Positions 47,549-64,000 are shown, counted from the first letter of the stretch. The stretch: 64,000 nucleotides of DNA from a virus (IMGVR_UViG_3300025934_000015:1-64000); one strand, 5' to 3'. Made by a program: numbers and translations. The notes: generated by a model not told the origin, from the letters alone.

Positions 47549-47745
47549 TCATCGTTCCCACGAGTACCGACTTGTGCCGGGCCCTGGAGGCGGAAGGCTT
47601 TCCGCTGCCGGACGAATGCGCGGACGTTTCCCTGCGCATGCCCGCCGACGGGGTCTTTCAACTGGTCTACACCGTGAACGTGAGCGGGACACGGCTTCAG
47701 CAACTCGGTCGCGCCCTGGAGCGCGTCGGCAAGACTCATGAGTAA
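47545..47745 (+). CDS. Hypothetical protein
   Basis: Overlaps both neighbours. Confidence 0.5.
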   Translation: MIIVPTSTDLCRALEAEGFPLPDECADVSLRMPADGVFQLVYTVNVSGTRLQQLGRALERVGKTHE

Positions 47746-49561
47746 CGTCGTGGTCCACGCGGACTTTCAGCCGACACCATCGCAGATGCCTGCGTCGATG
47801 AAGACGGCGGAACTCCGTGCGGCCACCTCGGTCCTCCTGGAGCGCATGCAGTTTCTGCGCGCCGCGGGCATGTCCTTCAATGGCCTGCGGGATCTCTACA
47901 ACATCCTCGGCTATCCCCGTGTCATTTCCCCGGCCCAATACCGGGACCGCTACGCACGCGGCGGCATTGCCGGGCGCGTGGTGGACGCTATGCCCAAGGC
48001 GACATGGCGCGGCGGCGTCGAGATCATTGAGGACGAAGATCCGGAAGTCTCGACGACCTTCGAGGAAACCTGCGCCGCGTTGATGACCCGGTTGAAACTG
48101 ACGCAGGTCTTTCAGCGGCTCGACATCCTCGCCCAGCAGTGCCGCTATGGCGTACTGCTTCTCGGCGCGCCCGGCGATTTCAATCAGGAACTGCCGAAGG
48201 GTAAACCGGAACAGTTGGTCTATGTGACGCCGTTTGCCGAAGAAGATGCGCGCGTCATGGAGTGGGAGCTGGACGAACACAACCCCCGCTTCGGCCAACC
48301 CACGCACTACCAACTCAGTCGTCTGACCGCGAACTCTCTGGCCAACATCGGATCGTGGGGCGTGCCTGCGTTTAGTCCGGCTGCGTTGCAACAGCCCGTC
48401 CACTGGAGTCGCGTCATTCACGTCCCGGCTGAGGGAATTCTCGACAACGAGGTGTTTGGTCCGCCCGCCCTGGAACGTGTGTGGAACCTGCTCGATGACC
48501 TCGACAAGGTCATTGGTGGTGGTGCCGAGGCCTTTTGGCTGCGCGCCAATCAGGGCCTGCATCTGAACATCGACAAGGATACGGCCAACGTCAAGCCGGA
48601 GGACCTGAAGGACCTGAAAGATCAGGCCGACGAATACCAGCATCAGATCCGCCGCATCCTCCGGACGCGTGGCGTAGACGTCAATGAGCTGGGGTCGGAT
48701 GTGGCCAACTTCAGTAACCCGGCGGATGCGGTGGTGACGCAGATTGCGGGATCCAAGGCGATTCCGAAGCGCATCCTGACCGGCAGTGAGATGGGCGAGT
48801 TAGCGTCGAGCCAGGACCGTGAGAACTTTCGCGACCAAGTGAACGGTCGCCAACTATCGTACGCCGAGCCCACGATCCTTCGGCAGTTCTTCGATCGACT
48901 GATTACCTACAAATACATCGTCGCGCCGAAGAAGGGCGCGGAAGCCTATCAGATCAAGTGGGCACATGTGCAAGTGCTCACCGAGCAGGAGAAGGCGGAA
49001 GGGGCGAGTAAGTGGGCGTCGGTCAATAACACGCAGGGTGCGCCCGTCTTCTTGAATCGCGAGATCCGCGATAAGTGGTACGCGATGCCGCCGCTCACGC
49101 CCGAGGAGATCCAGAAGGAAAAGGAATTGGCCAAGCCCCTGGAGCCGCCTGCGCCACCGCCGGGCGCGCCGGGCACGGTCGACGAAAACGGCAACCCCGT
49201 GGAACCGGGCAAGACGTTGCCGGGCAAGAATCCGCAGTCGCAGGGGCCGCGCGCGAAGGCCGAGGACGACACGGCGGACACGCCCGCAAAGGCCCGTGCC
49301 GCCGCGGACGCGGCGCAACTGGAACCGATCATTACGCTGTTAGAGCGCGCGTTGCGTGAGGGCAATACTGCGCTCCTTGATCAAGTGCTGGGCATCCGCC
49401 ATGAGACACAGCAAACGATCGTCTTACCAGACGTTACAATCCAGCCGCCTCCAGCAACCACGACCACCGTCCGCAAAGTCATCGAGTACGGCGACGTCCA
49501 CGGCACCGTCCGACCGATCGCGATCACCGAAACCACCGATAGTGGCGGCGACGCCGATTAA
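47738..49561 (+). CDS. Portal protein (DUF1073-like)
   Basis: Downstream of terL; YARGGIAGRVVD, PRFGQPTHY, VHWSRVIH, IPKRILTGSEMGELAS. Confidence 0.85.
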   Translation: MSNVVVHADFQPTPSQMPASMKTAELRAATSVLLERMQFLRAAGMSFNGLRDLYNILGYPRVISPAQYRDRYARGGIAGRVVDAMPKATWRGGVEIIEDEDPEVSTTFEETCAALMTRLKLTQVFQRLDILAQQCRYGVLLLGAPGDFNQELPKGKPEQLVYVTPFAEEDARVMEWELDEHNPRFGQPTHYQLSRLTANSLANIGSWGVPAFSPAALQQPVHWSRVIHVPAEGILDNEVFGPPALERVWNLLDDLDKVIGGGAEAFWLRANQGLHLNIDKDTANVKPEDLKDLKDQADEYQHQIRRILRTRGVDVNELGSDVANFSNPADAVVTQIAGSKAIPKRILTGSEMGELASSQDRENFRDQVNGRQLSYAEPTILRQFFDRLITYKYIVAPKKGAEAYQIKWAHVQVLTEQEKAEGASKWASVNNTQGAPVFLNREIRDKWYAMPPLTPEEIQKEKELAKPLEPPAPPPGAPGTVDENGNPVEPGKTLPGKNPQSQGPRAKAEDDTADTPAKARAAADAAQLEPIITLLERALREGNTALLDQVLGIRHETQQTIVLPDVTIQPPPATTTTVRKVIEYGDVHGTVRPIAITETTDSGGDAD

Positions 49562-50532: not shown

Positions 50533-50534
50533 CG

Positions 50535-51566
50535 ATGTCCCTGCGCTACGACGAACCCGCCACCGGCCAGGACGTCGAGACCGACGTCGTCGGCGGCAAA
50601 AACGTGCAGGTCATGAAGATGGCGTTCGGGCTGTCGGCGGAGAGCCAGCGTGTCGACGAGACCGCGCCTCTGCCGGTCACGACCTCCCCGGCAGGCAGTA
50701 CGTCGTGGGGACAGGCCACGTACACGGGCGGTTTCGGAGAAGTGATTCGTTTTGCGGTTCCAGCGGCTACACAATGGCTCCTCTTGTCCATCGAGAGCGC
50801 GTCGATGGACGCCGCACTGCAAGCCCAGTTCTCGATCGACGGGGGCACGACGTTCGGTGTTGTCGGGATTGCGATGTTGCGTGAGGTCACGCAACAATTC
50901 GGCTATGCCTTCATTGACTGGCGGACCGGCTATGATGGTGGGGCGAAGCCCTCTCGATGGACCGTCATTGGCCCAATGCCGCCATGGATCACACACTTCC
51001 GCATCAATGTGACTGGTGGTGCTGGGAGTGGGTCGTCGGTCTTCCGGATCGCGGCCATGGACAAGTCGTGGGATATCTCCTCGCTTGCCGTGGGTGCGCC
51101 GACCTCCGGGGCACTTGGGGGCGTGCAGATCTCCGGCTACGACGCAGGCAGCTCACAGAGCAAGTTCATTCCGACGTTCGACAAGTTCAACATCGATGAT
51201 ACAGGCTCGAACGGCCTTGCGGTGGCGTTGGTGACGATGTCCTCAGGACTGACCTTCCGTACCCGGTCCGCGCCGGTCACAACGCTGTTCGATTCGGAGC
51301 TACTCGATATTCCCGTGGGATCTCCGGCGACTGTGGTGACGGGCACGGTGTACGCGGATGTGGTCGTGTTGGTCAACACGACGACGGAGTTGCAAGACTT
51401 TACGCTCACGGATATTTCTGGTCCGCCGCGTGACTATGGCGGGGAGGATCTGCGGCCAAACGAGTGTCGTGTGCTGCCACTCTACGGACTCAAATTCAAC
51501 GGTGGGATCAAGGCCGGAGCGCTGAACGCGGGACTCAAGATTCAGGTCAAGGGGTGGCAGGCATGA
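50535..51566 (+). CDS. Beta-rich putative virion/decoration protein
   Basis: Gly/Thr/Ser-rich; located in the structural region. Confidence 0.6.
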   Translation: MSLRYDEPATGQDVETDVVGGKNVQVMKMAFGLSAESQRVDETAPLPVTTSPAGSTSWGQATYTGGFGEVIRFAVPAATQWLLLSIESASMDAALQAQFSIDGGTTFGVVGIAMLREVTQQFGYAFIDWRTGYDGGAKPSRWTVIGPMPPWITHFRINVTGGAGSGSSVFRIAAMDKSWDISSLAVGAPTSGALGGVQISGYDAGSSQSKFIPTFDKFNIDDTGSNGLAVALVTMSSGLTFRTRSAPVTTLFDSELLDIPVGSPATVVTGTVYADVVVLVNTTTELQDFTLTDISGPPRDYGGEDLRPNECRVLPLYGLKFNGGIKAGALNAGLKIQVKGWQA

Positions 51567-54247
51567 GCGTGCGCCCTGCCAAGATCGTCTTCTGTGCGAT
51601 TGTGATTTTGTTCGTCATTCTGCTTCTGGCCTTGCGCGCGGACGCACAAGTAGGCCGGGCGAATGGATCGTTGGCGGCGGAAAACGCGGCGGTGACGATT
51701 GGCAACACCGGCCACGCTGCGCAAATCAGTATCTCCGTCGAGGGTACGTACGACGCCACAATCTGGTTTGAAGGCAAGGTCGATCTCGTCAACACGTTCT
51801 GGCGTCCGATGCAATGCTTCCGGCCAGACTCCCTGCCGCCGAATTCCAACAGTGGCACGATTCAAAACATCGCCGGCGAGCAGGGTGCGTATCTGTGCAG
51901 TGGCAGCGGGTTCCAGACCGTGCGAGCCCGCATGGAAAGCTACGTCAGTGGTACGGCCACGGTGATCGTGAAAGCGCTCGGGACCGCCTCCAGTGTAGCG
52001 GTCATGCCGAACATGTTGACCGTGCAGGTCTCGGGGCGTGTGCCGTCCTATCTCGTGACGTCGGCTGGGAGTAGCTTGGCGGTCAAGAATACGACCCCCA
52101 GCGCCGGCGACTTAGCGTTAGTCGTGCGGAATCTTCCCTCAGGCACACAGGACGTGAACGTCACGAATTTTCCAGCGACGCAAGCGGTCACTGGAACGTT
52201 CTGGCAGGCGACCCAACCGATTTCTGGTACGGTGACGGCCAATGCAGGCACCAATCTTAACACGTCAGCCTTAGCCCTCGATGCGACACTCACAGGCGGC
52301 ACGCAAACGACACGGGTTACTGACGGCACCAACACAGCCACCGTTAAGCCTGCGAGCACAGGTGCAGTGGCTACGGATAAGGCTCTCGTCGTTGCAATAC
52401 ATCCGTCAACGACTGTTGGTGTTACAGGCACATTCTGGCAAGCCACGCAGCCTATCAGTGGATCAGTTAGCGTCTCTAATTTCCCAGCGACCCAAGCCGT
52501 GTCCGGCACCTTCTGGCAGGCGACACAGCCGGTCTCGGGGACGTTCTGGCAGGCGACACAGCCGGTCTCTGGTGGCACGGCGACGAACACGGGACTGACG
52601 ACGGGCCTGCCAGTCCTGGCGGGCCGTGCGCAGACCAGTGCGCCGACGTTCACCGATGGCAACCTCGGGTATCTCTCCATGGATACCGCAGGGAGCCTGC
52701 GGACGGCCGTGCAAAACTTCCCCTCGTCGCAGACCATCAATGGGACAGTGACGATTGCCGGGAGTGGCGGCACGCCCGATGTGGTGACGTGTTGCGGGGG
52801 TCTCGGACGCGCCCTGGTCGTGGATGGCCACAACTTTACGCAACCGGTGTCGGGCACGTTCTGGCAGGCGACGCAACCGGTCTCTGGGACGTTCTGGCAG
52901 GCGACGCAGCCGGTGTCGATTGCGTCCATGCCATCGACCCCCGTCACCGGCACGTTCTGGCAAGCGACGCAGCCGGTCTCACTGACCACCCTTCCGGCGC
53001 TCACCGCAGGCACGGCGGTTATTGGGCACGTCATTAGTGATAGTGGATCGACCACCGCCGTGACCGGCAATGTGACAGCCGTGCAATCCACGGGGTCGAA
53101 TCTGCATGTCGTCGTGGATACTGCGCCGACGACTGCGGTGACATTGGCCTCGACAACGCTGACCGCGAATGCGGTTGTGTCCACGGTCAACAGTAGCACG
53201 GCGACCCTGGGCATCGGTGGGGTGTTCACCGGCACCAGCGAGGACATGACGGAGTACGCGGACATCCGCGTGACGGTGTTTGCCGATCAAGCCTCCGCGA
53301 CGGACGGTCTGTCAATCCAGCAATCCTCGAACGGCACAAATTGGGACGTCACCGACGTCTTTACGATTGCGGCTGGAGCTGGACGCACCTTTGCGATTGG
53401 CAGCTCTGCGAAGTTCTTCCGTGTGGTGTATACGAATGGCGGCGTGGCGCAGGGCGCATTCCGTCTCCAAACTATCTTCCACAAAACGTTTCATAAGCCT
53501 TCCACGAATCGTCCAGCCGACGCCCGTACGAATGAGACAGACACAGAGGAAAATACCTCGTTTCTCATGGGCTACAACGGTACGACGTGGGACCGTCTGC
53601 GCTCCACGACGGCCAATGGGTTGGCGGTGGATGTCACGCGCGTCCCCGCCAATCAATCCAGTAACCAGACCCAGATCAATGGCGTGGCCGTCTCTGTCGA
53701 TCGTGGTACGACGGATACCGGGACGCAGCGCGTGACGACTGCGCAGGATGCGACGTATGCGGCTTCGACGGCGGCGAAGACTGCTACCGCCGCAGGCACG
53801 GCGGCGTTTTTCGAGATTTGCGGCAGTGCCTCGAAGACCATTCGAATTCAGCGCATTGTGGTAAGCGGTACGGTTGCCACCGCAGCCATCTATGGCGATG
53901 TGCAGATTCGCAAGACCAGTAGTGCCGGAACGGGTGCGACCTCGACGACGTTAACGGCGGTGCCCTACGACAGTAACTCGGCGGCGGCAACGGCCACGGC
54001 GAAATTCAATACGGTCCTCCCGACTGGCGGGAATACCCTGGTCGGTAATATCTTTAGCCAGACGCTCTTTTTTCCGATTACAGGGACGGTGACATCTTTT
54101 CAGCCACAACTGCTGTACGTGTGGCGTGATTTGGATGCGGAGTCGCCGGTACTTCGTGGAACGGCGCAGTGCTTGACTGCCGGGTTTGGCACGACGCCGA
54201 CCAACGCGCCCACACTCTCGGTCAGTGTGGCGTGGACGGAGAAGTGA
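51563..54247 (+). CDS. Thr-rich fibre-like repeat protein with N-terminal signal-peptide-like sequence
   Basis: MSVRPAKIVFCAIVILFVILLLALRADA-Q; seven GTFWQATQP[VI]S repeats. Confidence 0.75.
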   Translation: MSVRPAKIVFCAIVILFVILLLALRADAQVGRANGSLAAENAAVTIGNTGHAAQISISVEGTYDATIWFEGKVDLVNTFWRPMQCFRPDSLPPNSNSGTIQNIAGEQGAYLCSGSGFQTVRARMESYVSGTATVIVKALGTASSVAVMPNMLTVQVSGRVPSYLVTSAGSSLAVKNTTPSAGDLALVVRNLPSGTQDVNVTNFPATQAVTGTFWQATQPISGTVTANAGTNLNTSALALDATLTGGTQTTRVTDGTNTATVKPASTGAVATDKALVVAIHPSTTVGVTGTFWQATQPISGSVSVSNFPATQAVSGTFWQATQPVSGTFWQATQPVSGGTATNTGLTTGLPVLAGRAQTSAPTFTDGNLGYLSMDTAGSLRTAVQNFPSSQTINGTVTIAGSGGTPDVVTCCGGLGRALVVDGHNFTQPVSGTFWQATQPVSGTFWQATQPVSIASMPSTPVTGTFWQATQPVSLTTLPALTAGTAVIGHVISDSGSTTAVTGNVTAVQSTGSNLHVVVDTAPTTAVTLASTTLTANAVVSTVNSSTATLGIGGVFTGTSEDMTEYADIRVTVFADQASATDGLSIQQSSNGTNWDVTDVFTIAAGAGRTFAIGSSAKFFRVVYTNGGVAQGAFRLQTIFHKTFHKPSTNRPADARTNETDTEENTSFLMGYNGTTWDRLRSTTANGLAVDVTRVPANQSSNQTQINGVAVSVDRGTTDTGTQRVTTAQDATYAASTAAKTATAAGTAAFFEICGSASKTIRIQRIVVSGTVATAAIYGDVQIRKTSSAGTGATSTTLTAVPYDSNSAAATATAKFNTVLPTGGNTLVGNIFSQTLFFPITGTVTSFQPQLLYVWRDLDAESPVLRGTAQCLTAGFGTTPTNAPTLSVSVAWTEK

Positions 54248-54687
54248 TGACGGACATTCAAGCCGGGCAAATTCTGCTGTTGATGACGACCGTGGGAGGA
54301 TTTATCGCGCAGGCATGGCGTGAGTCGCGCAATCGGCAGTGGGCCATTGCGGATCGGCGGGCTGAGTTGGATGCGCAGACCACGAAGATCATTGCGGAAG
54401 CCAACGCGCGGGCTAAGGCCCTGCTCATTGAAACCGAAACGAAGGCTAAGATTCTGCACTTGGAGCAACTGGCCAGGGCTGAGGAGATTCGGGTGCGCTT
54501 GGATACCCACGATGAATGGGAGCGTCAGGAACGACAGACGTCCGCCGATACGACCGCGCACGTGGTGGGTCTCATTCAAGACGCCAAGTCCGCGGCGCAG
54601 GGCGCGTTTACCGAAGCCAATCACGTGAACCTGAAAATTGCCGATCTCAATCGGCGGCTGCTTCATGAGGAGGAAAAGGGCTCGTGA
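54247..54687 (+). CDS. Membrane-anchored coiled-coil protein (possibly lysis-related)
   Basis: N-terminal hydrophobic segment followed by a charged helix. Confidence 0.55.
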   Translation: MTDIQAGQILLLMTTVGGFIAQAWRESRNRQWAIADRRAELDAQTTKIIAEANARAKALLIETETKAKILHLEQLARAEEIRVRLDTHDEWERQERQTSADTTAHVVGLIQDAKSAAQGAFTEANHVNLKIADLNRRLLHEEEKGS

Positions 54688-55541
54688 GTCTCCTCCTTTT
54701 CTGGTCGCCACGCGCGGCAACAGGTGTTTACACCTATGACGGCGAGATTGCGTGTCAGTCGAGCGTCACGGCCCTCGTTGTCGCCCTGGTGGAACCCGTC
54801 ACGGCGATCGCCGCGCAGTCCACCGTCTCGTCACCGGTATCGTTTACAGCCGTTCCCGACGCGGTGATCGCGGCGCAGTTTGGTGTCGTCTCACCATACA
54901 GCTTCACGCACGAATTCGTCACGGCAGGCGAGATTGCGGCGCAGTCTACGGTGGAATCGGCGTACAGCTTTACGCCCTCGAACACGATTGAACTGATCGC
55001 GCGTCCCGGTATCATTTTGACGACGGGACAGGCAGGTCTGACGTATACGCCCGTGGCACGGCCGGACACGGGTGGTGGGGGCATGGCGTGGCCCACGCCG
55101 CAGCGTGTACGTCGCGTACGCCCGCGCGAGCGTGTACCCGTCCTCGTGCATCGGACAATCGTCGCGCGCCCCGCGCGCGTACGCGTGCATGGCTCGGTCT
55201 GCGCATTCTACTTCCGGCGGTCGATCGTCGCCGGACCAGGGACCGTGACGGTTCGGGGCGGGGCCGTCACGGGCACGCTGGTCCGCGCCATCGTGGCCGC
55301 GCGCCCAGCCGGTCGCCAGCCGGTCCCGGCGGTCCGTGGGACGTTCCAGCGGACCATCCTGGCCCGTCCGGTCATGGTCCTCAGCCGCGCGTCTGGGACG
55401 GTCCAGTACCAGTCCGGGGTTATGGCCCAGGTTGGCCGGGTCTTGACCAGTGGCGCGCCTGCAACGCTCACCATCTCCAAACACCCGCGCTACGAAACGA
55501 TGTTCGCTGACGAGGAGTGGCTGCTCATGGAGGTCGCATGA
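54684..55541 (+). CDS. Hypothetical protein (acidic repeat N-half, Arg-rich C-half)
   Basis: Repeated IAAQSTVxS units; GTGA/ATGA overlaps. Confidence 0.6.
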   Translation: MSLLLFWSPRAATGVYTYDGEIACQSSVTALVVALVEPVTAIAAQSTVSSPVSFTAVPDAVIAAQFGVVSPYSFTHEFVTAGEIAAQSTVESAYSFTPSNTIELIARPGIILTTGQAGLTYTPVARPDTGGGGMAWPTPQRVRRVRPRERVPVLVHRTIVARPARVRVHGSVCAFYFRRSIVAGPGTVTVRGGAVTGTLVRAIVAARPAGRQPVPAVRGTFQRTILARPVMVLSRASGTVQYQSGVMAQVGRVLTSGAPATLTISKHPRYETMFADEEWLLMEVA

Positions 55542-57679
55542 CCCTCGAGCGTTTGGCCCATCTCCGCGCGTTCGCGCGCGTGCGCGCCTTGCAGGCGCAC
55601 GAGGTGCTCCGCACGCTCCAGAATGGTGACGTCCATACGTTCTCATCCACACAGGTGGACTTGCCGGACTCCTTAGCCGATGCCGTGCGGAGTCTCCAGG
55701 TCCTCATTCCGCCTGACCATCTGACGGCAGACGGCTACGAAAAGCGTCCGCATGTGACGGTCAAGTACGGCATCCACGACACGTCCCCGAAGGCGGCATC
55801 GGCCCTGGTCTCCAACACGGGACCCATCACGATGACGTTAGGGCCGACGGGTGTGTTTGAGGCCGATGACTACGACGTCGTCTATGTGTCGGTGGACTCG
55901 GACGCCCTGCGCCAGCTCAATGCGAAGATTTCGGCGGGTGTGCCCGTGACCGACACGCATCCCGAGTACACGCCGCATGCGACGGTGGCGTACGTGGAGA
56001 AAGGCCTCGGGAAGATCTACGACGGCAATCCCACGTTGAATGGGATGACTGCCACGGTAGACGCGTTGCGGTTTATCTCGAAGGACGGGACCGAGACACT
56101 GATTCGGACGGCGGGTGGTCCAGGCTCGGGCAACTTCGGCCATGGTGGACGTCCAGGACAGATTGGTGGATCGTCGAGCGACGAGGGTGTCGTTCATAAA
56201 ATTACAGGTCCCGGCATTGGCGCAGGCATGGCGTCTTATGATCCTGCACGACCTGTTACCGTCCATCACACAGATAAGCGCGATCAGAATTTCGAGATCA
56301 CTGGTCCGACGACCGGCAAAGTGCTTGTGCATAAGGATGATCGGGGATTTGTCGTAACGGATGCCCGTGGAAAACATCCGGACGAAGGCGGACGTCGATT
56401 CACACGTGTGCACCACGCGTATGCCACGAAGGATGAAGCCCTGGCCGTAGCGATCAAGCTGGCCAAAACGCGTGTCAATGATCTCGAAAATGCACATGAG
56501 TGGCCCGACGATGACGACCTCGAAACATTGGGTGGTCCCGGTTCCGGCAACTTCGGCCATGCCGGACGTCCCGGCGAAGTCGGCGGATCGTCCTCCGAAG
56601 ACGGATCCTCATGGAAGGACCCGGGTGGACAGAACCACTCGGGCGTCACGTGGAAGCAGCCGACCGATCCGAAGACCGGCCGTCCCATTCCGATCAAAGT
56701 GGACACGGTGGAGGACGCGGTCAAGCTAGTCTCGGAAGGGAAAGTCGTCGAGGTCAAGGACGTCAAGTCCGCCTACACCCTGATCGATAAACTGGCCGAA
56801 CTGTCACAGCAGGCCAAGGCCAACACCGGCAAGGAAATCGATTACGACCTCTGTCAGGTGACGGTCGCCGGGACCAACATGTTTTGTACCGAGTCCTTGC
56901 GTGAGGCTAAGGTCGGGACGAAGGAGTATAAGGAAGGCGTCCCCCGGATCGAGATGCCACAGTTGGCCGGTCTGCCCGAACCCGGATCCGAAGCCGACAA
57001 CCTGCCGAAAAATGCCAAGGGTGAAGTGGACGCCAGCGCGCACTTTATCCACTTCCTCCAAGGCATCGGCATGAAGACGACCCACGAAGAAGTGCCTGCG
57101 GAAAAACTCCGCGCGTCACAGCGCGAGTTAGTGGGCCAGAACGTGGGCGGCATGATGCGGAACAAGGACTTCGATCCCGCCAAGGATCCGATCTTCATCT
57201 CCAGTGATAACTACGTGGTGGACGGCCACCACCGCTGGGCCGCAACCGTCGGGCGTGACGCGGAAGATGGCCACCTCGGGGACTCCACGATGAAGGTCCG
57301 CCGCATCAACGCGCCGATCTCTGAAGTGCTGCATCTGGCGAATGAGTATTCGAAGCGCTTCGGCATTAAACAGAAGGGTGTTGGCGCAGGCGCGCGGCAC
57401 GCGGGTGGTTCTGGCTCAGGGAACTTCGGTCATAGCGGACGCCCTGGAGAAGTGGGCGGATCGGCCAATAAGGACTTCGAGTCCTACATGACTGCCAATC
57501 CCCACAAGAGCACGTTCGAGATTGGCATCGAAATTCCGCTCGAACGCAAGGGCAAGCCACAGATGGCGAAGTTAGTCCGCAAGGAACATCACGGCGAGGA
57601 GTGGCGCATTCATAACGAACGAGGCCAATACGTCTATTCCGAAGGCTTCCGCTACGTGACTGAGCATCGCAAGAAATGA
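55538..57679 (+). CDS. Polyvalent protein 1: 2H phosphoesterase, unknown module, ParB/Srx-like module, unknown module, with 3 linker peptides
   Basis: PHVTVKYG and PHATVAY (two HxT motifs); PIFISSDNYVVDGHHRWAA; GGAGG RBS. Confidence 0.85.
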   Translation: MTLERLAHLRAFARVRALQAHEVLRTLQNGDVHTFSSTQVDLPDSLADAVRSLQVLIPPDHLTADGYEKRPHVTVKYGIHDTSPKAASALVSNTGPITMTLGPTGVFEADDYDVVYVSVDSDALRQLNAKISAGVPVTDTHPEYTPHATVAYVEKGLGKIYDGNPTLNGMTATVDALRFISKDGTETLIRTAGGPGSGNFGHGGRPGQIGGSSSDEGVVHKITGPGIGAGMASYDPARPVTVHHTDKRDQNFEITGPTTGKVLVHKDDRGFVVTDARGKHPDEGGRRFTRVHHAYATKDEALAVAIKLAKTRVNDLENAHEWPDDDDLETLGGPGSGNFGHAGRPGEVGGSSSEDGSSWKDPGGQNHSGVTWKQPTDPKTGRPIPIKVDTVEDAVKLVSEGKVVEVKDVKSAYTLIDKLAELSQQAKANTGKEIDYDLCQVTVAGTNMFCTESLREAKVGTKEYKEGVPRIEMPQLAGLPEPGSEADNLPKNAKGEVDASAHFIHFLQGIGMKTTHEEVPAEKLRASQRELVGQNVGGMMRNKDFDPAKDPIFISSDNYVVDGHHRWAATVGRDAEDGHLGDSTMKVRRINAPISEVLHLANEYSKRFGIKQKGVGAGARHAGGSGSGNFGHSGRPGEVGGSANKDFESYMTANPHKSTFEIGIEIPLERKGKPQMAKLVRKEHHGEEWRIHNERGQYVYSEGFRYVTEHRKK

Positions 57680-60600
57680 TTCAACTGCCACTGTCCCCAG
57701 ACGTCGGCGCGCGGGTGCTTACCCAGGCACTCCTGCGGCTTCGTCTGCTCGGCGGTCCCGGCAGTGGTAACTTCGGGCACAGTGGACGCCCGGGCGAAGT
57801 GGGCGGCTCCAGTGGTGAGCGACAACCCCAGGGCGATGAGGAAGACAACGATCTCAAGGCGCGTACCTTCTTCCATGGCACGCACTCGCTGAGTGTGCAG
57901 GACATTCTCCAACAGGGACTGTTAGTCGGCCATGCGGGGAAGATGTGGCCGAGTTTCTCCTCGCGCGAACATACATACATCACGACCGACCACGACAACG
58001 CGGAACACTGGGCCGAGTCGGCGGTGCAGAAAATGAAGATTGATCACCGGGATGCGGAGATCTATCCGGTGATTTTGACTGTGCGCGTGCCGCCCGAGTA
58101 CGCGCGACGTGTGGTGCAGGATTCCCACTTCCCTGAGCCCGGATCCCCGGCGCGGCAATTCAAAGGCAACATCCACCCCTCGTGGATCATCGGCGCGAAG
58201 ATGGGTGCGTGGGACGATGATGCGGACGGCATTGTATGGAAGGACGTATCGCGGTCGTCCCCGATGCCACGCGCCGCGGCGGACGCCGACACGATTATCC
58301 ACATTGTCCTGTTGCTGACGTCGAAGAAGTTGCGGACAGCCGGTGGTCCTGGCTCGGGCAACTTCGGCCACAGTGGACGCCCAGGACAGGTGGGCGGTTC
58401 TAGTAGCGCATTGACGGATAGCACAACGCATCCGGCCGACATGTCCTTCGAGCAGTTCCAAAAGCCTGTGCCGTTGCCTCCCGTTCCGGAGGGCCATATT
58501 CGGCTGTCGCATGTGACGTCCGCCGAGAATGTGCCGAACATTCTGCGCGAAGGGTTAAAGCAGTCCAAGTCGAAGGGGGCGTCCTACGGCGAGCCGAGTG
58601 TAGTCTGGGCCACGACGCATGGTGAGACGTGGGGCGGCGCACTGGACGCCAACGCCCGCGAAATCATTTTTGACATGCCGACGAAGGACGTCAGCAGTGC
58701 GGGCACACTGCATCGCATGGCGGATGTGCCGCCAGAGGCGATTGTCTCGGTGGAGCGCGCGGGATTTAGCGATGTGTCCACCGGCGCGTTGACCCTCCGG
58801 CAGGAACGGAAACACGAGGATCTGAACACGCGACGCCAGTACTGGGAAGCCTACCAGCGCGAGAAGCCCAAGTCGCCCCTGCCGTTCCGTCCGCCCGGCG
58901 TCTACGACGAGAAGGGGCGGTTGATTGCGCCGGTACAGTCGCAGCCGCACGCGCGGCCGTCCGGCCCGTGGGACATGAACCGTGCCGCCGGAGGTCCTGG
59001 CTCGGGAAACTTCGGCCACAGCGGACGTCCCGGACAAGTCGGCGGATCGACGTCTGGCGACGATGCGCGTATTGATAACCTCGAATCCTTCGACAAAATT
59101 CAGGTAGGCGACTACACGGTCCGTCGGGACATGTATGGCATGTGGGTCGTGTACAACGACCACAGTCACGCCGCGTTTGAGGATGCGCAGGGTGCCAAGC
59201 TGTACCTGCGGTCCAAACAGACGGCCGTGAACGCCGACCCGCATACGCTCGACGTGCCCGTGTCCATCTACCACAATTCGCCAGACCAGTTTGCGGAAAA
59301 TAAACCCACGTTTGGTGCGTACTTCGGGGATGAGCATTTCCTTAAGGCGTTTCCGAATGAATGGGGCGAGCACACGTATAAGGTCACACTGCCGAAGGGC
59401 AGTAAGGTGTTAGACCTGGGTAAGGATACGCCTGAGGCCCGGGAGTTTATGGCGACCGTGGCCGGGATTGCGTATCCGAAGGATCCTGGCATTGCGGACT
59501 GGCAAGCGCGACTTCGACAGGGCGATCCTGCGGCCAGTAGCTACGATGAATTCTACGAAGCGTGGACAGATAAGAAAAACATCCTCGGTGCGTTGAAACA
59601 GCACAAGGGCTACGATGCGGTCCGCTATCAGTCAGAGTACGTGTTGCCACCAGAGACCCTGAAGAAACTCAAGGGCACGAAACTGAAGACGGCGGAAGTG
59701 TTCAGGACGCTCGGTGGATCGGGGTCCGGTAATTTCGGCCACGCGGGACGGCCGGGTGAAGTTGGGGGATCGGTAACAGAGGGTGGACCTAACGGGGAAT
59801 CGGAGCCATTACACGCGGGCCCGCGTATTGGATTTGTAACCCCGACAGGTCAAGAACGTGTCGCTAGTAAAACCAGTGGCGGTATTGGTGGTTACGGTGA
59901 AGACCATACGGATCTTGCACGACGGTTGATGGACGATGAGAACGGCGGCGTACAACCGGCATTGAAACAGGGGTACTTACGCTATTGGGTGCGTAATGGC
60001 GAGATTGCACTCAACTTTAAGTCTGGTCAACCAAATACCGCATCTAACGCTCTTCGATTCATCAAGGAAAACGTTCAGGACGGCGATCGCATTTACCTCG
60101 ACATTGAACATCCCCATGGCGATAACGTTACGCTTGGAGGATTCTTCGACAACCCTCGTGAAGCCAATCAGGCGATCCGTCGTGCAGGTGGACTGAAAAC
60201 ACTTGGGGGCCCTGGCTCCGGTAACTTCGGCCACACCGGACGGCCCGGCGAAGTCGGCGGCTCCTCGGGTGGTGAACTGGGTCCGCGTCCAACGCCCATC
60301 AAGGTGTCGAAGGTCAAGGACGCCATCCCGCTCATCCTCCAGGGCAAAGTCGTCGAGCTGCCGAACGTCCGCAAGGTCAATGTGCTGATGCAGCGATTGG
60401 CCAAGATCGCGAAGGACGCCAAGCGACAGGGTAAGGACGCGCCCTCGTATGATGCGTGTCAGATCGTGGTGCCGGGGTCCAATATCTTCTGTGGTCAGCA
60501 CCTTGTGACCAAGGAATACCCTAACGGCATGCCCCGCATTGTCATGCCGCAGTTTGCTAGTGAACCGATTCCTGGAACGCCTGCCGATAAACTGCCGCGC

Positions 60601-62689
60601 GATGCGAAGGGAGTGGTCGATGCGGGTCCGGAATTTATTGATCATCTGGCATCACGCGGTATCACGAGTACACGTGTGGACGTCCCCTCGGCGTCCCTGC
60701 GGCCCAGTCAGGCGCAACTCGACGGTCCCAAAATCGCCAAGCGCATGGTCCAGAAGGACTACCGGCCCAGTAGTCCGATCTTTATCTCACGTGACGGTTA
60801 CATCGTGGATGGCCACCACCGTTGGGCAGCCGTGGTCGGCCGCGACGCCGAAGACGGACACTTAGGCGACTCCACGATCCGCGCCTACAAGATTGACGCG
60901 CCGATCAGCGAGATCCTGAACATTGCGAAGACCTGGACTAAGACCTTTGGGCTCGAACAGAAGGGGATTGGGCGCGCGGCTGGTGGACCCGGGAGCGGGA
61001 ATTTCGGCCATAGCGGACGGCCGGGTGAAGTCGGTGGATCGTCCAGTGAGGGCGGATCAGCCGTCACGAAAAGTACGCCGTTCAAACGATGGTTCAAACA
61101 ATCCAAAGTCGTCGACGCGGAAGGCAAACCGCTGGTCGTCTACCACGGTACGACGCATGACTTCGACACGTTTGAACCGGCGGGCTCGGATAAGTACAAC
61201 ATCGAATCCGACTTCGGCGCAGCCGCCTATTTCTCCAACTCCGCGTCGGATGTATCCGAAAACTACGCAGGTGTAGGGCCGGATCTCACGAGCCGTCTGG
61301 AACAGCGTGCCGACCAACTGACGAGCGAGAACGACGAGCTGGATCATGAGGCCGCACTGAAGCAGGCGCGCGAGGAGTTAGTGGGCCGGAGCGGCGCGCT
61401 GGGCGTGCCCGTCTATCTGTCGATGCAAAACCCCTTTGTGCTGGGGGACGCGTACGACGAGGATCATCCGGTCAAGGAAACCTACCTCACGCACGAGTAT
61501 GTCTACGACGATCCCAATGACCCCGATTCTGACATCGTGGGTGAGGAAGGCACGCTCGTCGACTTTATCACCGCGTTGAAGGATGAGGCTGGGCAGTTCC
61601 ACGATACCGAAGGCGTTGATGACTTCCTGACGAAGTTAGCGGATAACAGCTTTGATGGCATGCACGCCAGTGAACTCGACAAACTGTGGCGCACCACGGA
61701 AACGACTGCCTATGTGACCGACGATCAGGGGCGGCTGGCAGGCAACGAACTCTATCGACGTGCGCTGGAGCGCGCAGGGTTCGATGGCGTGATTGACCGC
61801 TCGGTCGATACGAAGTTTGGCTCGGCACGGCGCATTGGTAAGCAGATGATCGGTGTGACTGCCGATACCGAACATTACATCGTCTTCAAACCCCAGCAGA
61901 TTAAGTCCGCTATCGGGAATCGGAAGTTTAACCCGAAGAGTCCCGTGATCACGCTCGGTGGTCCGGGCTCCGGCAACTTCGGTCACGCCGGACGGCCCGG
62001 TGAAGTCGGGGGCTCTGGCGTAGGCGACAGTACCGCGCACTTACCGGAATCGGTCGCGTATGTCCTGCGGGCGCGCGAACAGAAATTAAAGGAACTTGAC
62101 TACGAAGCCGCCGCTATTCTCTCACCTACGGGCGAGGTGGTGAATTATATCTCCAGTTACGCGAAGGACTACATCACGATCGATGAAAAGTTGAAGCCAA
62201 GTTTGGCCGATACCATCTTTACCCACAATCATCCGGGCAGTAACGGTCTGAGTCTGGCGGACGGCGACGTGGCGGTTAACCTGAATATCCGCGAGATACG
62301 AGCGATTGGCGCGGATGGGCGTGTGCATAGTCTGCGACGCGAGGGCGACCGTTGGCCGGACAATTTTATGGCCCTGGTGCGTGTGGCGGACTATGAAACG
62401 CAAAAGACCTTTTCTGAGGAGATCCGCGCCGGACACATGACGATGCAGGAGGCCAATGCGAAGCACTACGATCATGTGTACGCAACGGCTGTAGCAAAAA
62501 TCCCTGGTGTCGCGTTCGTGATGGCTCCCAGTCTGCCGGTGGTCTCGGAGGTCCATGTCTGAGATCATTTTGATTGACGATCGTGAGTTCCGGATCCCGG
62601 TCTACACCGAGGAGAGTGTCCGCACACTCGGCGGTCCCGGCTCGGGCAACTTCGGCCACAGCGGACGCCCTGGCGAGGTGGGGGGCTCC
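56114..62689 (+). repeat. Eleven in-frame copies of the 20-codon peptide GG[PS]GSGNFGHxGRPG[EQ][VI]GGS
   Basis: Copies start at 56114, 56531, 57404, 57751, 58342, 58990, 59713, 60205, 60982, 61957 and 62630; differences are mostly synonymous. Confidence 0.97.
57676..62562 (+). CDS. Polyvalent protein 2 (1628 aa): several ADP-ribosyltransferase-like, ParB-like and JAB/MPN-like modules, with 7 linker peptides
   Basis: FFHGT..ILQQGL; LSHVT..ILREGL; SKVVDAEGKPLVVYHGT...QIKSAIGN; VDGHHRWAA; FTHNHPGSNGLSLAD. Confidence 0.85.
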   Translation: MIQLPLSPDVGARVLTQALLRLRLLGGPGSGNFGHSGRPGEVGGSSGERQPQGDEEDNDLKARTFFHGTHSLSVQDILQQGLLVGHAGKMWPSFSSREHTYITTDHDNAEHWAESAVQKMKIDHRDAEIYPVILTVRVPPEYARRVVQDSHFPEPGSPARQFKGNIHPSWIIGAKMGAWDDDADGIVWKDVSRSSPMPRAAADADTIIHIVLLLTSKKLRTAGGPGSGNFGHSGRPGQVGGSSSALTDSTTHPADMSFEQFQKPVPLPPVPEGHIRLSHVTSAENVPNILREGLKQSKSKGASYGEPSVVWATTHGETWGGALDANAREIIFDMPTKDVSSAGTLHRMADVPPEAIVSVERAGFSDVSTGALTLRQERKHEDLNTRRQYWEAYQREKPKSPLPFRPPGVYDEKGRLIAPVQSQPHARPSGPWDMNRAAGGPGSGNFGHSGRPGQVGGSTSGDDARIDNLESFDKIQVGDYTVRRDMYGMWVVYNDHSHAAFEDAQGAKLYLRSKQTAVNADPHTLDVPVSIYHNSPDQFAENKPTFGAYFGDEHFLKAFPNEWGEHTYKVTLPKGSKVLDLGKDTPEAREFMATVAGIAYPKDPGIADWQARLRQGDPAASSYDEFYEAWTDKKNILGALKQHKGYDAVRYQSEYVLPPETLKKLKGTKLKTAEVFRTLGGSGSGNFGHAGRPGEVGGSVTEGGPNGESEPLHAGPRIGFVTPTGQERVASKTSGGIGGYGEDHTDLARRLMDDENGGVQPALKQGYLRYWVRNGEIALNFKSGQPNTASNALRFIKENVQDGDRIYLDIEHPHGDNVTLGGFFDNPREANQAIRRAGGLKTLGGPGSGNFGHTGRPGEVGGSSGGELGPRPTPIKVSKVKDAIPLILQGKVVELPNVRKVNVLMQRLAKIAKDAKRQGKDAPSYDACQIVVPGSNIFCGQHLVTKEYPNGMPRIVMPQFASEPIPGTPADKLPRDAKGVVDAGPEFIDHLASRGITSTRVDVPSASLRPSQAQLDGPKIAKRMVQKDYRPSSPIFISRDGYIVDGHHRWAAVVGRDAEDGHLGDSTIRAYKIDAPISEILNIAKTWTKTFGLEQKGIGRAAGGPGSGNFGHSGRPGEVGGSSSEGGSAVTKSTPFKRWFKQSKVVDAEGKPLVVYHGTTHDFDTFEPAGSDKYNIESDFGAAAYFSNSASDVSENYAGVGPDLTSRLEQRADQLTSENDELDHEAALKQAREELVGRSGALGVPVYLSMQNPFVLGDAYDEDHPVKETYLTHEYVYDDPNDPDSDIVGEEGTLVDFITALKDEAGQFHDTEGVDDFLTKLADNSFDGMHASELDKLWRTTETTAYVTDDQGRLAGNELYRRALERAGFDGVIDRSVDTKFGSARRIGKQMIGVTADTEHYIVFKPQQIKSAIGNRKFNPKSPVITLGGPGSGNFGHAGRPGEVGGSGVGDSTAHLPESVAYVLRAREQKLKELDYEAAAILSPTGEVVNYISSYAKDYITIDEKLKPSLADTIFTHNHPGSNGLSLADGDVAVNLNIREIRAIGADGRVHSLRREGDRWPDNFMALVRVADYETQKTFSEEIRAGHMTMQEANAKHYDHVYATAVAKIPGVAFVMAPSLPVVSEVHV

Positions 62690-64000
62690 GCGCCCGAGGA
62701 CGGACCGGCCATCGGTGGCAGCATCCGCGCGCAAAAAGAGGAAGGCGTGCGCCGCGTCGAAGCGCTCCTCGACAAGGCGGTCAAGTCGGCGGACTTTACG
62801 GTCGCGGGTGACGAGAGTTATACCGAAGACGATTTGACCTGGAGTGATTTCTCCAGTACGCAGCAGGATCGCGCATTTGAAAATTTCCGTGACCAGTCCT
62901 ATAACGAAGGCGTGGAGGTTGATGATAGCGAGATCATCAGTGACCTCTACAAGGACTTATACCGCGATAACGAGAAGGTCGTCGAGGAGGCTTCACAGAA
63001 GTTAATCGACGACATCAATAATCCGGAGTCCACGGTTCAGGCGTTTCAGCAGACGACCGAACTGCCGTTTACCACGGAGAGTGGCGAGCCCGCGCCGGTG
63101 GTGCAGCGGTTCTATCTCGATCCCGACACGATCGAAGCGGAAGAAGATACGGGCGATGGCGCGCCCCTCAATGAGGACGCCCTGCGTCTGACCAATGGTG
63201 AGGAGCTGACGCCCCAACAAAAAGAAGCCGTGGACATGCTCTGGTCCCATCACTACGAAGCGGAGATGGACAAGGCCAAGGAGCGGGTGACCGAGAGTGA
63301 CGAATACTCCGAGCGCCGCAATGAGTTAGAGTCTGAGGAGATCGATAGTCAGTGGAATAACATGTCCGACTCGAAGAAGATCGACTATCTCGATCAAAAC
63401 GACAAGGACGCTGCACTCGAAGAGAAGGCTGGTACCGGAACTGAAACCTTAGACAACTCCGAACCCGATAACTGGATTGTCGATACGGAAGTCGAGGAAT
63501 CCACCGGCCGCGCCACGGATGAGAGCAAGCGGGAGGACTACGACAAGACCCGCATTCTCGCGCGGAAGCTGGCCGAACTGCGCACATCGGAGATCCTAAC
63601 TGAACGCGGGTTAAGTACGACGGGCGCGGCGGACATTCCCCGCAGTGTGTGGGAGGCGTGGAAAGGATCGTCGACGAGCGACTTAGGATTGGCATTGCAG
63701 TTAGCCGCCGCGGAAGAACTCGGTGGACACCATCGGCTGAATGAGCGGGAAGTGAGTCACGCACGACAAATCGCGGATCAGCAATTTGGTATTCAGGTGC
63801 CGTTTGCAGATTTACCCAAGGCAACACAAGATCAGGCGCATGAACGCTACGTACGTGAATTTGCGGACTACGAGGTGCAGAGTTTCAAAACGCAAAACGA
63901 TAACGCAAAAGTGCCCTACACCGAAGCCGATGTCCAAGCCTACCGTCAGAAGGCGGAGGATCGGTGGGAAAAAGGGTGGGAGTCACTGTCTGGATATGGT
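62555..64000 (+). CDS. Polyvalent protein 3 (acidic), runs off the window edge
   Basis: Absent from the ORF track. GGAGG RBS, then MSEIILIDDREFRIPVYTEESVRTL-GGPGSGNFGHSGRPGEVGGS followed by Asp/Glu-rich sequence open to the end. Confidence 0.85.
   Translation, partial: MSEIILIDDREFRIPVYTEESVRTLGGPGSGNFGHSGRPGEVGGSAPEDGPAIGGSIRAQKEEGVRRVEALLDKAVKSADFTVAGDESYTEDDLTWSDFSSTQQDRAFENFRDQSYNEGVEVDDSEIISDLYKDLYRDNEKVVEEASQKLIDDINNPESTVQAFQQTTELPFTTESGEPAPVVQRFYLDPDTIEAEEDTGDGAPLNEDALRLTNGEELTPQQKEAVDMLWSHHYEAEMDKAKERVTESDEYSERRNELESEEIDSQWNNMSDSKKIDYLDQNDKDAALEEKAGTGTETLDNSEPDNWIVDTEVEESTGRATDESKREDYDKTRILARKLAELRTSEILTERGLSTTGAADIPRSVWEAWKGSSTSDLGLALQLAAAEELGGHHRLNEREVSHARQIADQQFGIQVPFADLPKATQDQAHERYVREFADYEVQSFKTQNDNAKVPYTEADVQAYRQKAEDRWEKGWESLSGYG

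What the first reader, a model, noticed from the sequence alone, without database searches (positions are those of the whole stretch)
55538..64000. Modular polyproteins punctuated by an 11-fold conserved 20-aa tag: candidate package-and-cleave effector system
Seen: three consecutive overlapping ORFs contain 11 copies of GG[PS]GSGNFGHxGRPG[EQ][VI]GGS. The copies differ mainly at synonymous sites, so the peptide is what is conserved. Each falls between unrelated domains and is preceded by RTA, ETL, RHA, RLL, RTA, RAA, RTL, KTL, RAA, ITL or RTL; in ORFs 2 and 3 the first copy starts at codon 26. Some modules (about 56170-56500 and 59770-60200) look more AT-rich than neighbours. Established: polyvalent and MuF-associated proteins in head modules carry enzymatic effectors thought to be delivered with the DNA, and T4 internal proteins use a capsid-targeting peptide processed by the prohead protease. 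Inference: each tag is a cleavage site plus a capsid/portal-docking or ejection signal, so the polyprotein matures into individually tagged anti-host enzymes, while the 60-bp coding repeat doubles as a recombination joint for swapping modules.
Basis: partly seen in the sequence, partly recalled or inferred. Interest (0 to 1): 0.92.

Follow-up and report, generated by a model that had tools for sequence, protein, structure and literature searches.

The report
Header-tagged cargo polyproteins in phage head
Three head genes of a 121-kb phage string together at least 13 enzyme modules, and each junction carries a likely capsid-protease cutting site followed by the same 20-residue peptide, which also occurs in thousands of uncultured phages and was not found in the literature or family libraries searched here.

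Summary
There are 11 copies of GGPGSGNFGHxGRPGxVGGS in the window and a 12th just past it. They are conserved as peptide, not as DNA. They sit in disordered stretches between unrelated domains of three overlapping ORFs lying between the portal and the protease/capsid genes.

The ORFs are phage-type polyvalent proteins (2H, two ParB-like, ART-PolyVal and MuF modules). The tag itself is widespread: 4,159 protein clusters match it, mostly from metagenomes. I found it in no Pfam, PHROG, NCBIfam or PDB entry and in no searchable paper.

New evidence concerns the three residues before the tag.
- They vary by phage lineage and track the prohead-protease family. [R/K]-x-[A/L] and x-x-D go with DUF2213, x-x-K with S78, and [L/I/V]-x-E with a T4 gp21-like S77 protease. 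The last matches gp21's known motif.
- Relatives of this phage's protease carry the tag exactly at conserved R-x-A or x-T-L sites.

Best reading (about 0.6): the prohead protease cuts just before each tag, releasing cargo enzymes that begin with it. What reads the tag is unknown. The short N-terminal leaders, not the tags, resemble T4 capsid-targeting sequences. Modules do swap at tag borders, but DNA identity between tags is low.

The scan has noted similar header tags before on other genomes. One tool, the look-up of encoding contigs, was closed.

The parts
47738..49561 (+). Portal protein; context, marks the start of the head module
   Evidence: PF06381 E 7.7e-32 and phrog_146 E 3.7e-59
55538..57679 (+). 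ORF1, polyvalent cargo protein 1 (713 aa from the ATG): leader, 4 modules, 3 tags
   Evidence: the identical 713-aa protein is on record; AlphaFold2 domain/linker profile
55538..55618 (+). ORF1 N-terminal leader, 27 aa, ending R-T-L and not followed by a tag; candidate targeting propeptide
   Evidence: predicted helix at residues 3-28, then a disordered stretch before the 2H domain; the same length and the same ending as the leaders of ORF2 and ORF3
55619..56113 (+). Module M1a: 2H phosphoesterase (weakly Acb1-like); the only module without a tag in front
   Evidence: PF13563 E 1.8e-13; PF23474 E 0.002, below its cut-off; homologues in 9 other tag proteins end where a tag starts
56114..56173 (+). 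Tag 1 (preceded by R-T-A)
56174..56530 (+). Module M1b, unknown function, low GC3 (0.51); probably a recent acquisition
   Evidence: no homologue among the collected tag proteins
56531..56590 (+). Tag 2 (preceded by E-T-L)
56591..57403 (+). Module M1c: ParB/Srx-like (D-G-H-H-R motif)
   Evidence: phrog_2859 E 1.3e-15; 50% identical to M2e; 91% identical block in P0023, bounded by tags on both sides; pLDDT 80-90. Pfam gives no hit
57404..57463 (+). Tag 3 (preceded by R-H-A)
57464..57676 (+). Module M1d, 71 aa, unknown function
   Evidence: 76% identical C-terminal module after a tag in P0023 and P0154
57676..62562 (+). ORF2, polyvalent cargo protein 2 (1628 aa): leader, 7 tags, 7 modules
57676..57750 (+). 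ORF2 leader, 25 aa, ending R-L-L; belongs to a leader family conserved in many tag proteins
57751..57810 (+). Tag 4
57811..58341 (+). Module M2a, weakly ART/KptA-like
   Evidence: PARP E 0.061; RNA 2'-phosphotransferase E 0.023; these are leads only
58342..58401 (+). Tag 5
58402..58989 (+). Module M2b, unknown function
58990..59049 (+). Tag 6
59050..59712 (+). Module M2c, unknown function; shared with 7 other tag proteins
59713..59772 (+). Tag 7
59773..60204 (+). Module M2d, unknown function, lowest GC3 (0.44); probably a recent acquisition
60205..60264 (+). Tag 8
60265..60981 (+). Module M2e: second ParB/Srx-like module
   Evidence: 50% identical to M1c; phrog_2859 E 2.6e-16
60982..61041 (+). 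Tag 9
61042..61956 (+). Module M2f: ADP-ribosyltransferase of polyvalent proteins
   Evidence: PF18760 E 7.5e-19, covering profile positions 1-137 of 140
61957..62016 (+). Tag 10
62017..62559 (+). Module M2g, unknown function; has an H-N-H-P...S..D motif that recalls JAB/RadC, not confirmed
   Evidence: no Pfam or PDB hit; protein atlas gives only weak leads of 0.80-0.81; its homologues are nearly always the last module of their protein
62555..64000 (+). ORF3, polyvalent cargo protein 3 (1157 aa in all). It runs to genome nt 66028, with MuF at residues 865-977, tag 12 at residue 991, and a 147-aa C-terminal module
62555..62629 (+). ORF3 leader, 25 aa, ending R-T-L; the same leader family is seen in P0059 and P0192
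62630..62689 (+). Tag 11

Best explanation
The three ORFs are phage polyvalent cargo proteins made in the head-assembly module.

Structure of each junction:
- a short prohead-protease site, here [R/K]-x-[A/L] at P3 to P1;
- directly after it, a disordered 20-residue header peptide that is almost invariant.

Proposed course of events (steps 1-3 are inferred; nothing has been shown at the bench):
1. The proteins enter the procapsid by their short conserved N-terminal leaders and/or through the MuF module of ORF3.
2. The phage's DUF2213 protease, which has the T4 gp21/herpesvirus assemblin fold and is encoded about 1.2 kb downstream, cuts after P1 at every junction.
3. This releases about 13 separate enzymes: a 2H phosphoesterase, two ParB-like modules, an ART-PolyVal ADP-ribosyltransferase, further weakly ART-like and unknown modules, and MuF. 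Twelve of them start with the header. They travel in the capsid and act early in the next host.

The header is not needed for cutting as such, because homologous sites exist without it. It is therefore probably a handle on the mature cargo, or a universal presentation pad for the site. Its reader is unknown and must be common to phages with quite different head proteins. Because the header frames every module, modules can be exchanged in frame between phages.
For: - Head-module context: portal, then cargo ORFs with MuF, then DUF2213 protease, then HK97-like capsid protein.
- Protease fold: a model of a close relative's DUF2213 protein matches T4 gp21 (5jbl, probability 1.0) and then herpesvirus proteases.
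- Tags are disordered and lie between domains.
- Asymmetry: a tag often follows a leader of about 30 aa, but is almost never near a C-terminus.
- Residue -1 is fixed within a protein (88% majority share against 48% when shuffled) and differs between lineages.
- The upstream logo depends on P1. P1 A or L goes with P3 R/K in 75-90% of cases. P1 E goes with P3 L/I/V/M in 78% (p 7e-9), which is the published gp21 motif L/I-x-E.
- The record with six [L/F/I]-x-E tags encodes a Peptidase_S77.
- Lysine-type (K) loci have S78 and never DUF2213 (0 of 34 against 34 of 110, p 4e-5). DUF2213 records are D, L, A or H types.
- In DUF2213 proteins, 17 of 121 homologues carry the tag within 40 residues after the protease domain, next to the family's invariant ...R-x-A site. 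This phage's own protease keeps R-T-A and E-T-L there without a tag.
- Module homology blocks in other proteins begin just after one tag and end at the next.
Against: - No proteomic or biochemical data exist for any tag-bearing phage. None was found among cultured phages or in PHROGs.
- The link between P1 type and protease family is confounded by shared ancestry.
- 14 of 38 large records, 8 of them judged at least 99% complete, have none of the four protease families searched.
- R-x-[A/L] is not enriched in this phage's capsid, portal or protease proteins overall.
- AlphaFold2 does not dock the tag on the protease in cis.
- A 20-residue, nearly invariant P'-side sequence is not explained by cleavage alone.
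Confidence: 0.6

Rival explanations
1. Uncleaved hinge. The polyvalent proteins stay whole, as Iyer et al. assumed for many such proteins. In this reading the tag is a conserved flexible spacer, for instance one that lets a very long chain be packed or threaded through the portal and tail.
For: Tags are disordered. Some known polyvalent proteins are transferred at full length (PMC5512222). There is no direct evidence of cleavage.
Against: A mere spacer does not need 16 invariant residues in 626 instances. The lineage-specific P3-x-P1 pattern that tracks the protease family, including the gp21 motif, has no reason to exist under this reading. Tags link portal and protease domains to cargo, and those domains must work as free oligomers.
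Confidence: 0.12
2. Cargo address read by a non-protease partner, such as packaged DNA (through the G-R-P core, as in an AT-hook), the capsid interior (as with encapsulin loading peptides), the portal or MuF. The tag itself would drive loading, retention or ejection, whether or not cleavage happens next to it.
For: Extreme conservation of a disordered peptide is typical of a short linear binding motif. The tag heads each module. MuF is the commonest neighbouring family. The capsid protein gives a weak Linocin/encapsulin-family hit.
Against: No protein partner is universal. MuF is found in 28 of 38 records and is missing from 4 of 15 complete ones. There are two portal families, at least four protease families and at least two capsid families. 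The tag lacks the basic flanks of an AT-hook. Conserved N-terminal leaders are already present as candidate targeting signals. This reading is compatible with the best explanation as its second half.
Confidence: 0.18
3. Recombination cassette border. The repeat is kept mainly because it lets modules be exchanged, like the conserved motifs that precede variable toxin domains in polymorphic toxins. The peptide itself would have no function of its own.
For: Module homology stops at tags, and module order differs between phages. Two modules have foreign GC3, bounded by tags. The ParB-like module is duplicated.
Against: Selection acts on the peptide, not the DNA: 654 synonymous against 119 non-synonymous codon differences, and serine coded by both codon families. 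Exact shared runs are only 5-23 nt. Correlation of tag GC3 with the neighbouring modules is weak.
Confidence: 0.06
4. Self-acting peptide. The tag would cause its own chain break (Asn/His-assisted autoproteolysis or a translational skip), so that no protease is needed.
For: Invariant His, frequent Asn and Gly-rich context. Many complete records have no recognised protease.
Against: Asn is replaced by His, Phe, Asp or Tyr in 23% of tags. A 20-mer in a disordered stretch lacks the strained fold that known autoproteolytic sites need. This reading does not explain the protease-specific upstream motifs.
Confidence: 0.04

Closest known systems
Phage-type polyvalent proteins (Iyer, Burroughs, Anand, de Souza, Aravind 2017, PMC5512222)
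   Same: Many effector domains in one polypeptide. They are encoded beside portal, MuF and capsid genes and draw on the same domain repertoire: ART-PolyVal, 2H, DdrB-like ParB, MuF, Zeta, Fic, NUDIX, RelA/SpoT. They are predicted to be packaged and injected.
   Different: That paper proposes processing by an in-built zincin-like metallopeptidase (MPTase) domain. In the terms I searched, it mentions no conserved junction peptide. Here no MPTase was detected, and the junctions carry prohead-protease-type sites plus a header that is the same in every module and phage examined.
T4 internal proteins and Alt: capsid-targeting sequence plus gp21 processing (PMC9026906)
   Same: Short N-terminal leader ending in the protease motif. 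Assemblin-fold prohead protease with a three-residue motif. Cargo includes an ADP-ribosyltransferase. Proteins are ejected with the DNA. One tag-bearing phage (G001/L115) has a gp21-like protease, and its tags are preceded by [L/F/I]-x-E; four of its tag ORFs have the leader, site, cargo layout.
   Different: T4 cargo consists of single proteins with no header after the site. Here up to 7 modules are chained, the site in this phage is [R/K]-x-[A/L], and every mature N-terminus would carry the same 20 residues.
MuF polymorphic toxins of temperate phages (Jamet et al. 2017, PMC5576092)
   Same: A MuF domain followed by a variable C-terminal module. In ORF3 and in 8 of the 20 MuF-tag fusion ORFs in the fetched loci, the tag sits about 5-17 residues after the end of the MuF domain.
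   Different: No immunity gene or prophage state was examined here. In the terms I searched, the paper does not describe the junction peptide. Most tags in this phage are not next to MuF.
Giant-phage (phiKZ, SPN3US) ejection and inner-body proteins cut by the prohead protease
   Same: Many head-internal proteins matured by a gp21-type protease at a short motif (PMC9026906).
   Different: The cargo consists of separate genes, the motif ends in Glu, and no shared header is known.
Encapsulin cargo-loading peptides; pre-toxin junction motifs of polymorphic toxins (from memory)
   Same: A short conserved peptide, joined by Gly-rich linkers, that marks cargo for an HK97-fold shell; or a conserved motif that frames exchangeable toxin modules.
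   Different: These are analogies only. Encapsulin peptides are usually C-terminal and bind one shell family. No binding or loading was tested here.

Membership tests
Phage-type polyvalent proteins (Iyer et al. 2017) | Two or more unrelated effector-type domains in one polypeptide | tested here: met
   2H (PF13563, E 1.8e-13), ART-PolyVal (PF18760, E 7.5e-19), MuF (PF04233, E 6e-9), two ParB-like modules (phrog_2859), and several unknown modules
Phage-type polyvalent proteins (Iyer et al. 2017) | Encoded among virion/head genes of a phage with a portal-terminase system | tested here: met
   Portal upstream; DUF2213 protease and HK97-like capsid protein downstream
Phage-type polyvalent proteins (Iyer et al. 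2017) | Packaged in the capsid and delivered into the host | not testable with these tools
   Needs virion proteomics and infection assays
T4-type internal head proteins (capsid-targeting sequence plus prohead-protease processing) | Prohead protease of the gp21/assemblin fold encoded in the head module | tested here: met
   DUF2213 (PF09979, E 1.9e-5) in the downstream gene. The model of a close homologue matches T4 gp21 (5jbl) best, then herpesvirus proteases. Ser and His residues are invariant in the family alignment
T4-type internal head proteins (capsid-targeting sequence plus prohead-protease processing) | N-terminal targeting propeptide ending in the protease motif | tested here: inconclusive
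   Leaders of 25-27 aa ending in R-x-L are present in all three ORFs and fall into families conserved across phages. Neither targeting nor removal has been shown
T4-type internal head proteins (capsid-targeting sequence plus prohead-protease processing) | Cleavage after Glu in L/I-x-E | tested here: not met
   In this phage P1 is A or L and P3 is R or K. The Glu motif is met only in the S77-bearing relative
MuF polymorphic toxins (Jamet et al. 2017) | MuF domain followed by a variable C-terminal toxin module | tested here: inconclusive
   ORF3 has MuF, then tag 12, then a 147-aa module of unknown function. Here MuF is not N-terminal, and toxicity is unknown
MuF polymorphic toxins (Jamet et al. 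2017) | Cognate immunity gene; temperate phage | not tested
   Not examined

The most novel reading that the evidence does not exclude
The tag is one class of a general, undescribed 'header code' for capsid cargo in tailed phages. Under this reading, a small set of interchangeable header peptides is placed straight after the prohead-protease site. The set includes this class, the ...N-Q-Y-T/S classes seen at the same protease junction, and the N-P-x-H-D..G-R-F class noted earlier in the scan. The headers would be read by something common to phages with unrelated portal, protease and capsid families.
Probability: 0.3. Interest if true: 0.88.

Novelty: new variant of a known kind. Interest (0 to 1): 0.74.

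Why it matters
Packaged effector proteins are a phage's first strike against host defences, but outside T4, P1, N4 and the giant phages little is known about how they are loaded and released.

A junction grammar (leader, protease site, header, module) shared by thousands of uncultured phages would have three uses.
- It would let cargo enzymes be recognised from sequence alone, including the many modules with no known family. The two foreign-composition modules in this window are examples.
- It would predict the specificity of four prohead-protease families directly from genomes.
- It would offer a portable way to load proteins into capsids.

It also makes an old suggestion testable with one proteomics experiment: that polyvalent proteins are cut into working units.

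Tried and rejected
1. JAB/ubiquitin-like cutting after Gly-Gly by the last module of ORF2. The H-N-H-P motif has the wrong spacing, there is no Pfam or PDB hit, and the atlas scores are only 0.80-0.81. Most tag proteins lack such a module.
2. MuF as the universal reader of the tag. It is the commonest neighbour but is absent from 4 of 15 complete records.
3. One portal, capsid or protease family common to all tag phages. This is not the case.
4. Tag docking on the protease in cis. AlphaFold2 leaves residues 227-277 of the relative's protein below pLDDT 50.
5. A shared R-x-[A/L] site in the capsid and portal N-termini (earlier first-stage note). Counts are at chance level. Only the positionally conserved sites in the protease protein carry weight.
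6. Tag codon composition following the downstream module. The correlation is r 0.41 (p 0.19, n 12), so it is suggestive only.
7. Cultured phages and family libraries. tblastn against 50,697 phage records found nothing for ORF3, for a tag segment or for a Clostridiales-MAG (uncultured) prophage tag protein; BLAST's low-complexity filter may hide the tag. No PHROG, Pfam, NCBIfam, PADLOC or PDB entry holds the tag.
8. Literature string searches for the tag and for the alternative headers found nothing relevant.
Gene neighbourhoods therefore came from loci fetched by DNA pattern and from whole-record family searches.
10. The P1 residue of the HK97 protease site could not be checked in the library. 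My recollection that it is Lys is unverified and is not used as evidence.

Full report
WHAT IS THERE

The window is the first 64 kb of a single 120,838-bp, 60% GC virus record.

Three co-directional ORFs lie between the portal gene (47738-49561) and a DUF2213 protease/scaffold gene plus an HK97-like capsid gene. The latter two lie just beyond the window. The ORFs overlap by 4 and 8 nt.
- ORF1: 55538-57679
- ORF2: 57676-62562
- ORF3: 62555 to genome nt 66028

They carry 12 copies of GGPGSGNFGHxGRPGxVGGS, 11 of them in the window.
- A degenerate DNA pattern for the core hits 11 times, against none in 100 shuffles.
- Copies differ by 654 synonymous and 119 non-synonymous codon changes. One serine uses both codon families, so selection is on the peptide.

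WHAT THE PROTEINS ARE

The recognisable modules are:
- a 2H phosphoesterase (weakly Acb1-like);
- two ParB/Srx-like modules that are 50% identical to each other;
- an ART-PolyVal ADP-ribosyltransferase;
- MuF in ORF3.

The rest have no family. This is the repertoire and gene context of the phage-type polyvalent proteins of Iyer et al. 2017 (PMC5512222).

AlphaFold2 of ORF1 gives a helical 27-residue leader, folded 2H and ParB-like domains, and pLDDT below 50 exactly over the three tags and their Ser/Asp/Gly-rich spacers.

THE TAG IS WIDESPREAD AND APPARENTLY UNDESCRIBED

- A profile of the 12 copies finds 4,159 representative proteins (clusters at 50% identity) at E <= 0.001, with 769 at E <= 1e-10 and up to 9 copies per protein.
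It also occurs in 31 contigs of prokaryote assemblies, mostly MAGs of Clostridia/Lachnospiraceae but also Dehalococcoidia, Omnitrophota and others.
- Over 626 instances, 13 positions are at least 95% identical.
- Attached domains include three ART families, 2H/Acb1, Zeta toxin, Fic, GNAT, NUDIX, RelA/SpoT, ParBc, a PI3/PI4-kinase-like domain, Tad6, topoisomerase I-like and FAD oxidoreductases. They also include the head-assembly anchors themselves: N-terminal portal domains of two families, MuF, and prohead proteases DUF2213 and S78_2.
- Ten top hits looked up by exact sequence were all unnamed metagenomic proteins.
- No Pfam, PHROG, NCBIfam, PADLOC or PDB entry contains the tag.
- Full-text searches for the motif found nothing relevant, and the two key papers do not mention it under the terms I tried.
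- Earlier follow-ups in this scan described similar 'header tags' on other genomes. This is a second sighting within the scan, not independent evidence.

THE TAG BELONGS TO THE MODULE THAT FOLLOWS IT

- Among 188 other tag proteins, the median distance from the N-terminus to the first tag is 30 residues, and 68% have a tag within 60 residues.
- Only 5 of 194 have a tag within 60 residues of the C-terminus.
- Inter-tag distances are domain-sized, with a median of 198 residues.
- The short leaders fall into families conserved across phages, including those of ORF2 and ORF3. ORF1 has a leader of the same length, ending R-T-L, but no tag after it.

THE THREE RESIDUES BEFORE THE TAG LOOK LIKE THE PROHEAD-PROTEASE SITE

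1. In this phage, P1 is A or L in 12 of 12 tags and P3 is R or K in 10 of 12 (p about 1e-8 each).

2. Across phages, residue -1 is fixed within a protein (88% majority share against 48% when shuffled). It differs between lineages: L, K, A, N, R, D, E, H.

3. Over 996 distinct instances, the upstream logo depends on P1.
 - A or L goes with P3 R/K in 75-90% of cases and a hydrophobic or Pro residue at P4.
 - R goes with P3 V/T/I in 82%.
 - E goes with P3 L/I/V/M in 78%.
 - The last is the published T4 gp21 motif L/I-x-E (PMC9026906).

4. The record holding six [L/F/I]-x-E tags encodes a gp21-like Peptidase_S77 (E 8e-16). Four of its tag ORFs have a 18-39-residue leader followed by the site, the tag and a cargo domain, which is the layout of T4 internal proteins plus a tag.

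5. P1 type and protease family go together.
 - K-type loci have Peptidase_S78 (9 ORFs) and HK97-type capsid and portal genes, and never DUF2213 (0 of 34 against 34 of 110 other loci, p 4e-5).

 Among 38 records of at least 40 kb:

 | Protease family found | P1 types of the records |
 |---|---|
 | DUF2213 | D 14, L 4, A 1, H 1 |
 | S78 | K 2 |
 | S78_2 | K 1 |
 | S77 | E 1 |
 | none of the four | 14 records |

6. DUF2213 has a prohead-protease fold. A model of a close relative's protein (protease domain pLDDT above 90) matches T4 gp21 best and then herpesvirus assemblins. Ser and His residues are invariant in the family alignment.

7. Positional homology within the DUF2213 family.
 - The protease domain ends in a conserved ...G-C-G-x-x-R-x-A, with the R invariant. 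A second conserved G-x-P-R-x-A lies near the C-terminus.
 - 17 of 121 homologues have the tag within 40 residues after the domain, directly behind R-A-A or behind a conserved ...E-x-L segment.
 - This phage's own protein keeps R-T-A and E-T-L at those places without a tag.
 - Its N-terminal mini-domain ends in R-A-A where two relatives have R-A-A followed by the tag.

 Site and tag are therefore separable. The site is old and belongs to the protease family; the tag is an add-on.

These points are correlative and share phylogenetic history. Together they are hard to explain unless the chain is cut just before the tag.

WHAT THE TAG ITSELF DOES IS OPEN

- It is not required for cutting: tag-less homologous sites exist, and T4 has none.
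- It is not tied to one portal, capsid, protease or MuF family. MuF, the commonest neighbour, is found in 28 of 38 large records and 11 of 15 complete ones.
- AlphaFold2 does not dock it on the protease in cis.
- At the same DUF2213 junction, behind the same sites, 13 of 120 homologues carry other conserved peptides: IGNGNNQYT, GHxFHGNQYT and NPEGINQYS. This suggests several interchangeable header classes.

My preferred reading is a handle on the mature N-terminus of each cargo protein, used for retention, for ejection or in the host. The alternative is a universal unstructured presentation pad for the site. I cannot choose between these with the tools at hand.

MODULE EXCHANGE

- Each module of ORF1-3 that has relatives matches a block in other tag proteins that begins a few residues after one tag and ends at the start of the next. 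Module orders and combinations differ between proteins.
- Modules 56174-56530 and 59773-60204 have GC3 of 0.51 and 0.44 against about 0.7-0.8 around them. The shift is bounded by tags, and they have no relatives in the set.
- Tags therefore frame exchangeable cassettes. However, the DNA of the tags is only 77% identical, with exact runs of 5-23 nt. Exchange is more likely illegitimate or micro-homology joining filtered by selection for an intact junction than homologous recombination through the repeat.

VERDICT

The locus belongs to a known kind (polyvalent, head-packaged effectors processed like T4 internal proteins). It also carries an apparently undescribed, pan-phage junction element whose reader is unknown.

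LIMITS

- There are no experimental data.
- No cultured phage with the tag was found.
- Several complete records have no recognised protease.

Noticed in passing
window 14022-14095 (-): The phage encodes a tRNA-Gly (anticodon GCC), which reads GGC/GGU. Those are the commonest glycine codons in the 12 glycine-rich tags. A link is speculative.
   Followed up: no
P0199, P0222, P0284, P0227, P0305, P0269 and others (DUF2213 homologues): Other conserved peptides sit at the same protease-scaffold junction, behind the same R-x-A or x-x-L sites...NGNNQYT...HxFHGNQYT and ...NPEGINQYS. They occur in 13 of 120 homologues and sometimes repeat within one protein. These are probably further header classes, and no literature was found on them.
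   Followed up: partly
window 56174-56530 and 59773-60204: Two tag-bounded modules of unknown function with foreign codon composition (GC3 0.51 and 0.44). They have no Pfam hit and no relatives among about 190 tag proteins. They are candidate newly captured effectors.
   Followed up: partly
L115 (record G001), about 15 kb: A T4-like arrangement. Six [L/F/I]-x-E-plus-tag junctions are spread over six reading frames. Four of these frames have a short leader (18-39 aa) before the site, tag and cargo; cargo includes DRAT-like ART, GNAT and PI3/PI4-kinase-like domains. A gp21-like S77 protease is encoded at the edge of the locus.
   Followed up: partly
L001:5360-7579 (own protease/scaffold gene, genome nt 67360-69579) and L017:6205-8253 (-): Both proteins share a small N-terminal domain (phrog_3684) and a conserved G-x-P-R-A-A segment about 35-45 residues from the C-terminus. 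The segment is a likely second self-processing site of the scaffold part.
   Followed up: partly
P0202, P0228, P0276, P0314 (DUF2213 homologues): Half tags: the first six residues (G-G-P-G-S-G) are followed by unrelated sequence at the usual junction. This hints that the tag has two separable halves.
   Followed up: no
window 50415-55541: Three ORFs (383, 927 and 285 aa) between the portal gene and the cargo genes have no Pfam or PHROG match. The 927-aa one has a strongly hydrophobic stretch near its N-terminus.
   Followed up: no
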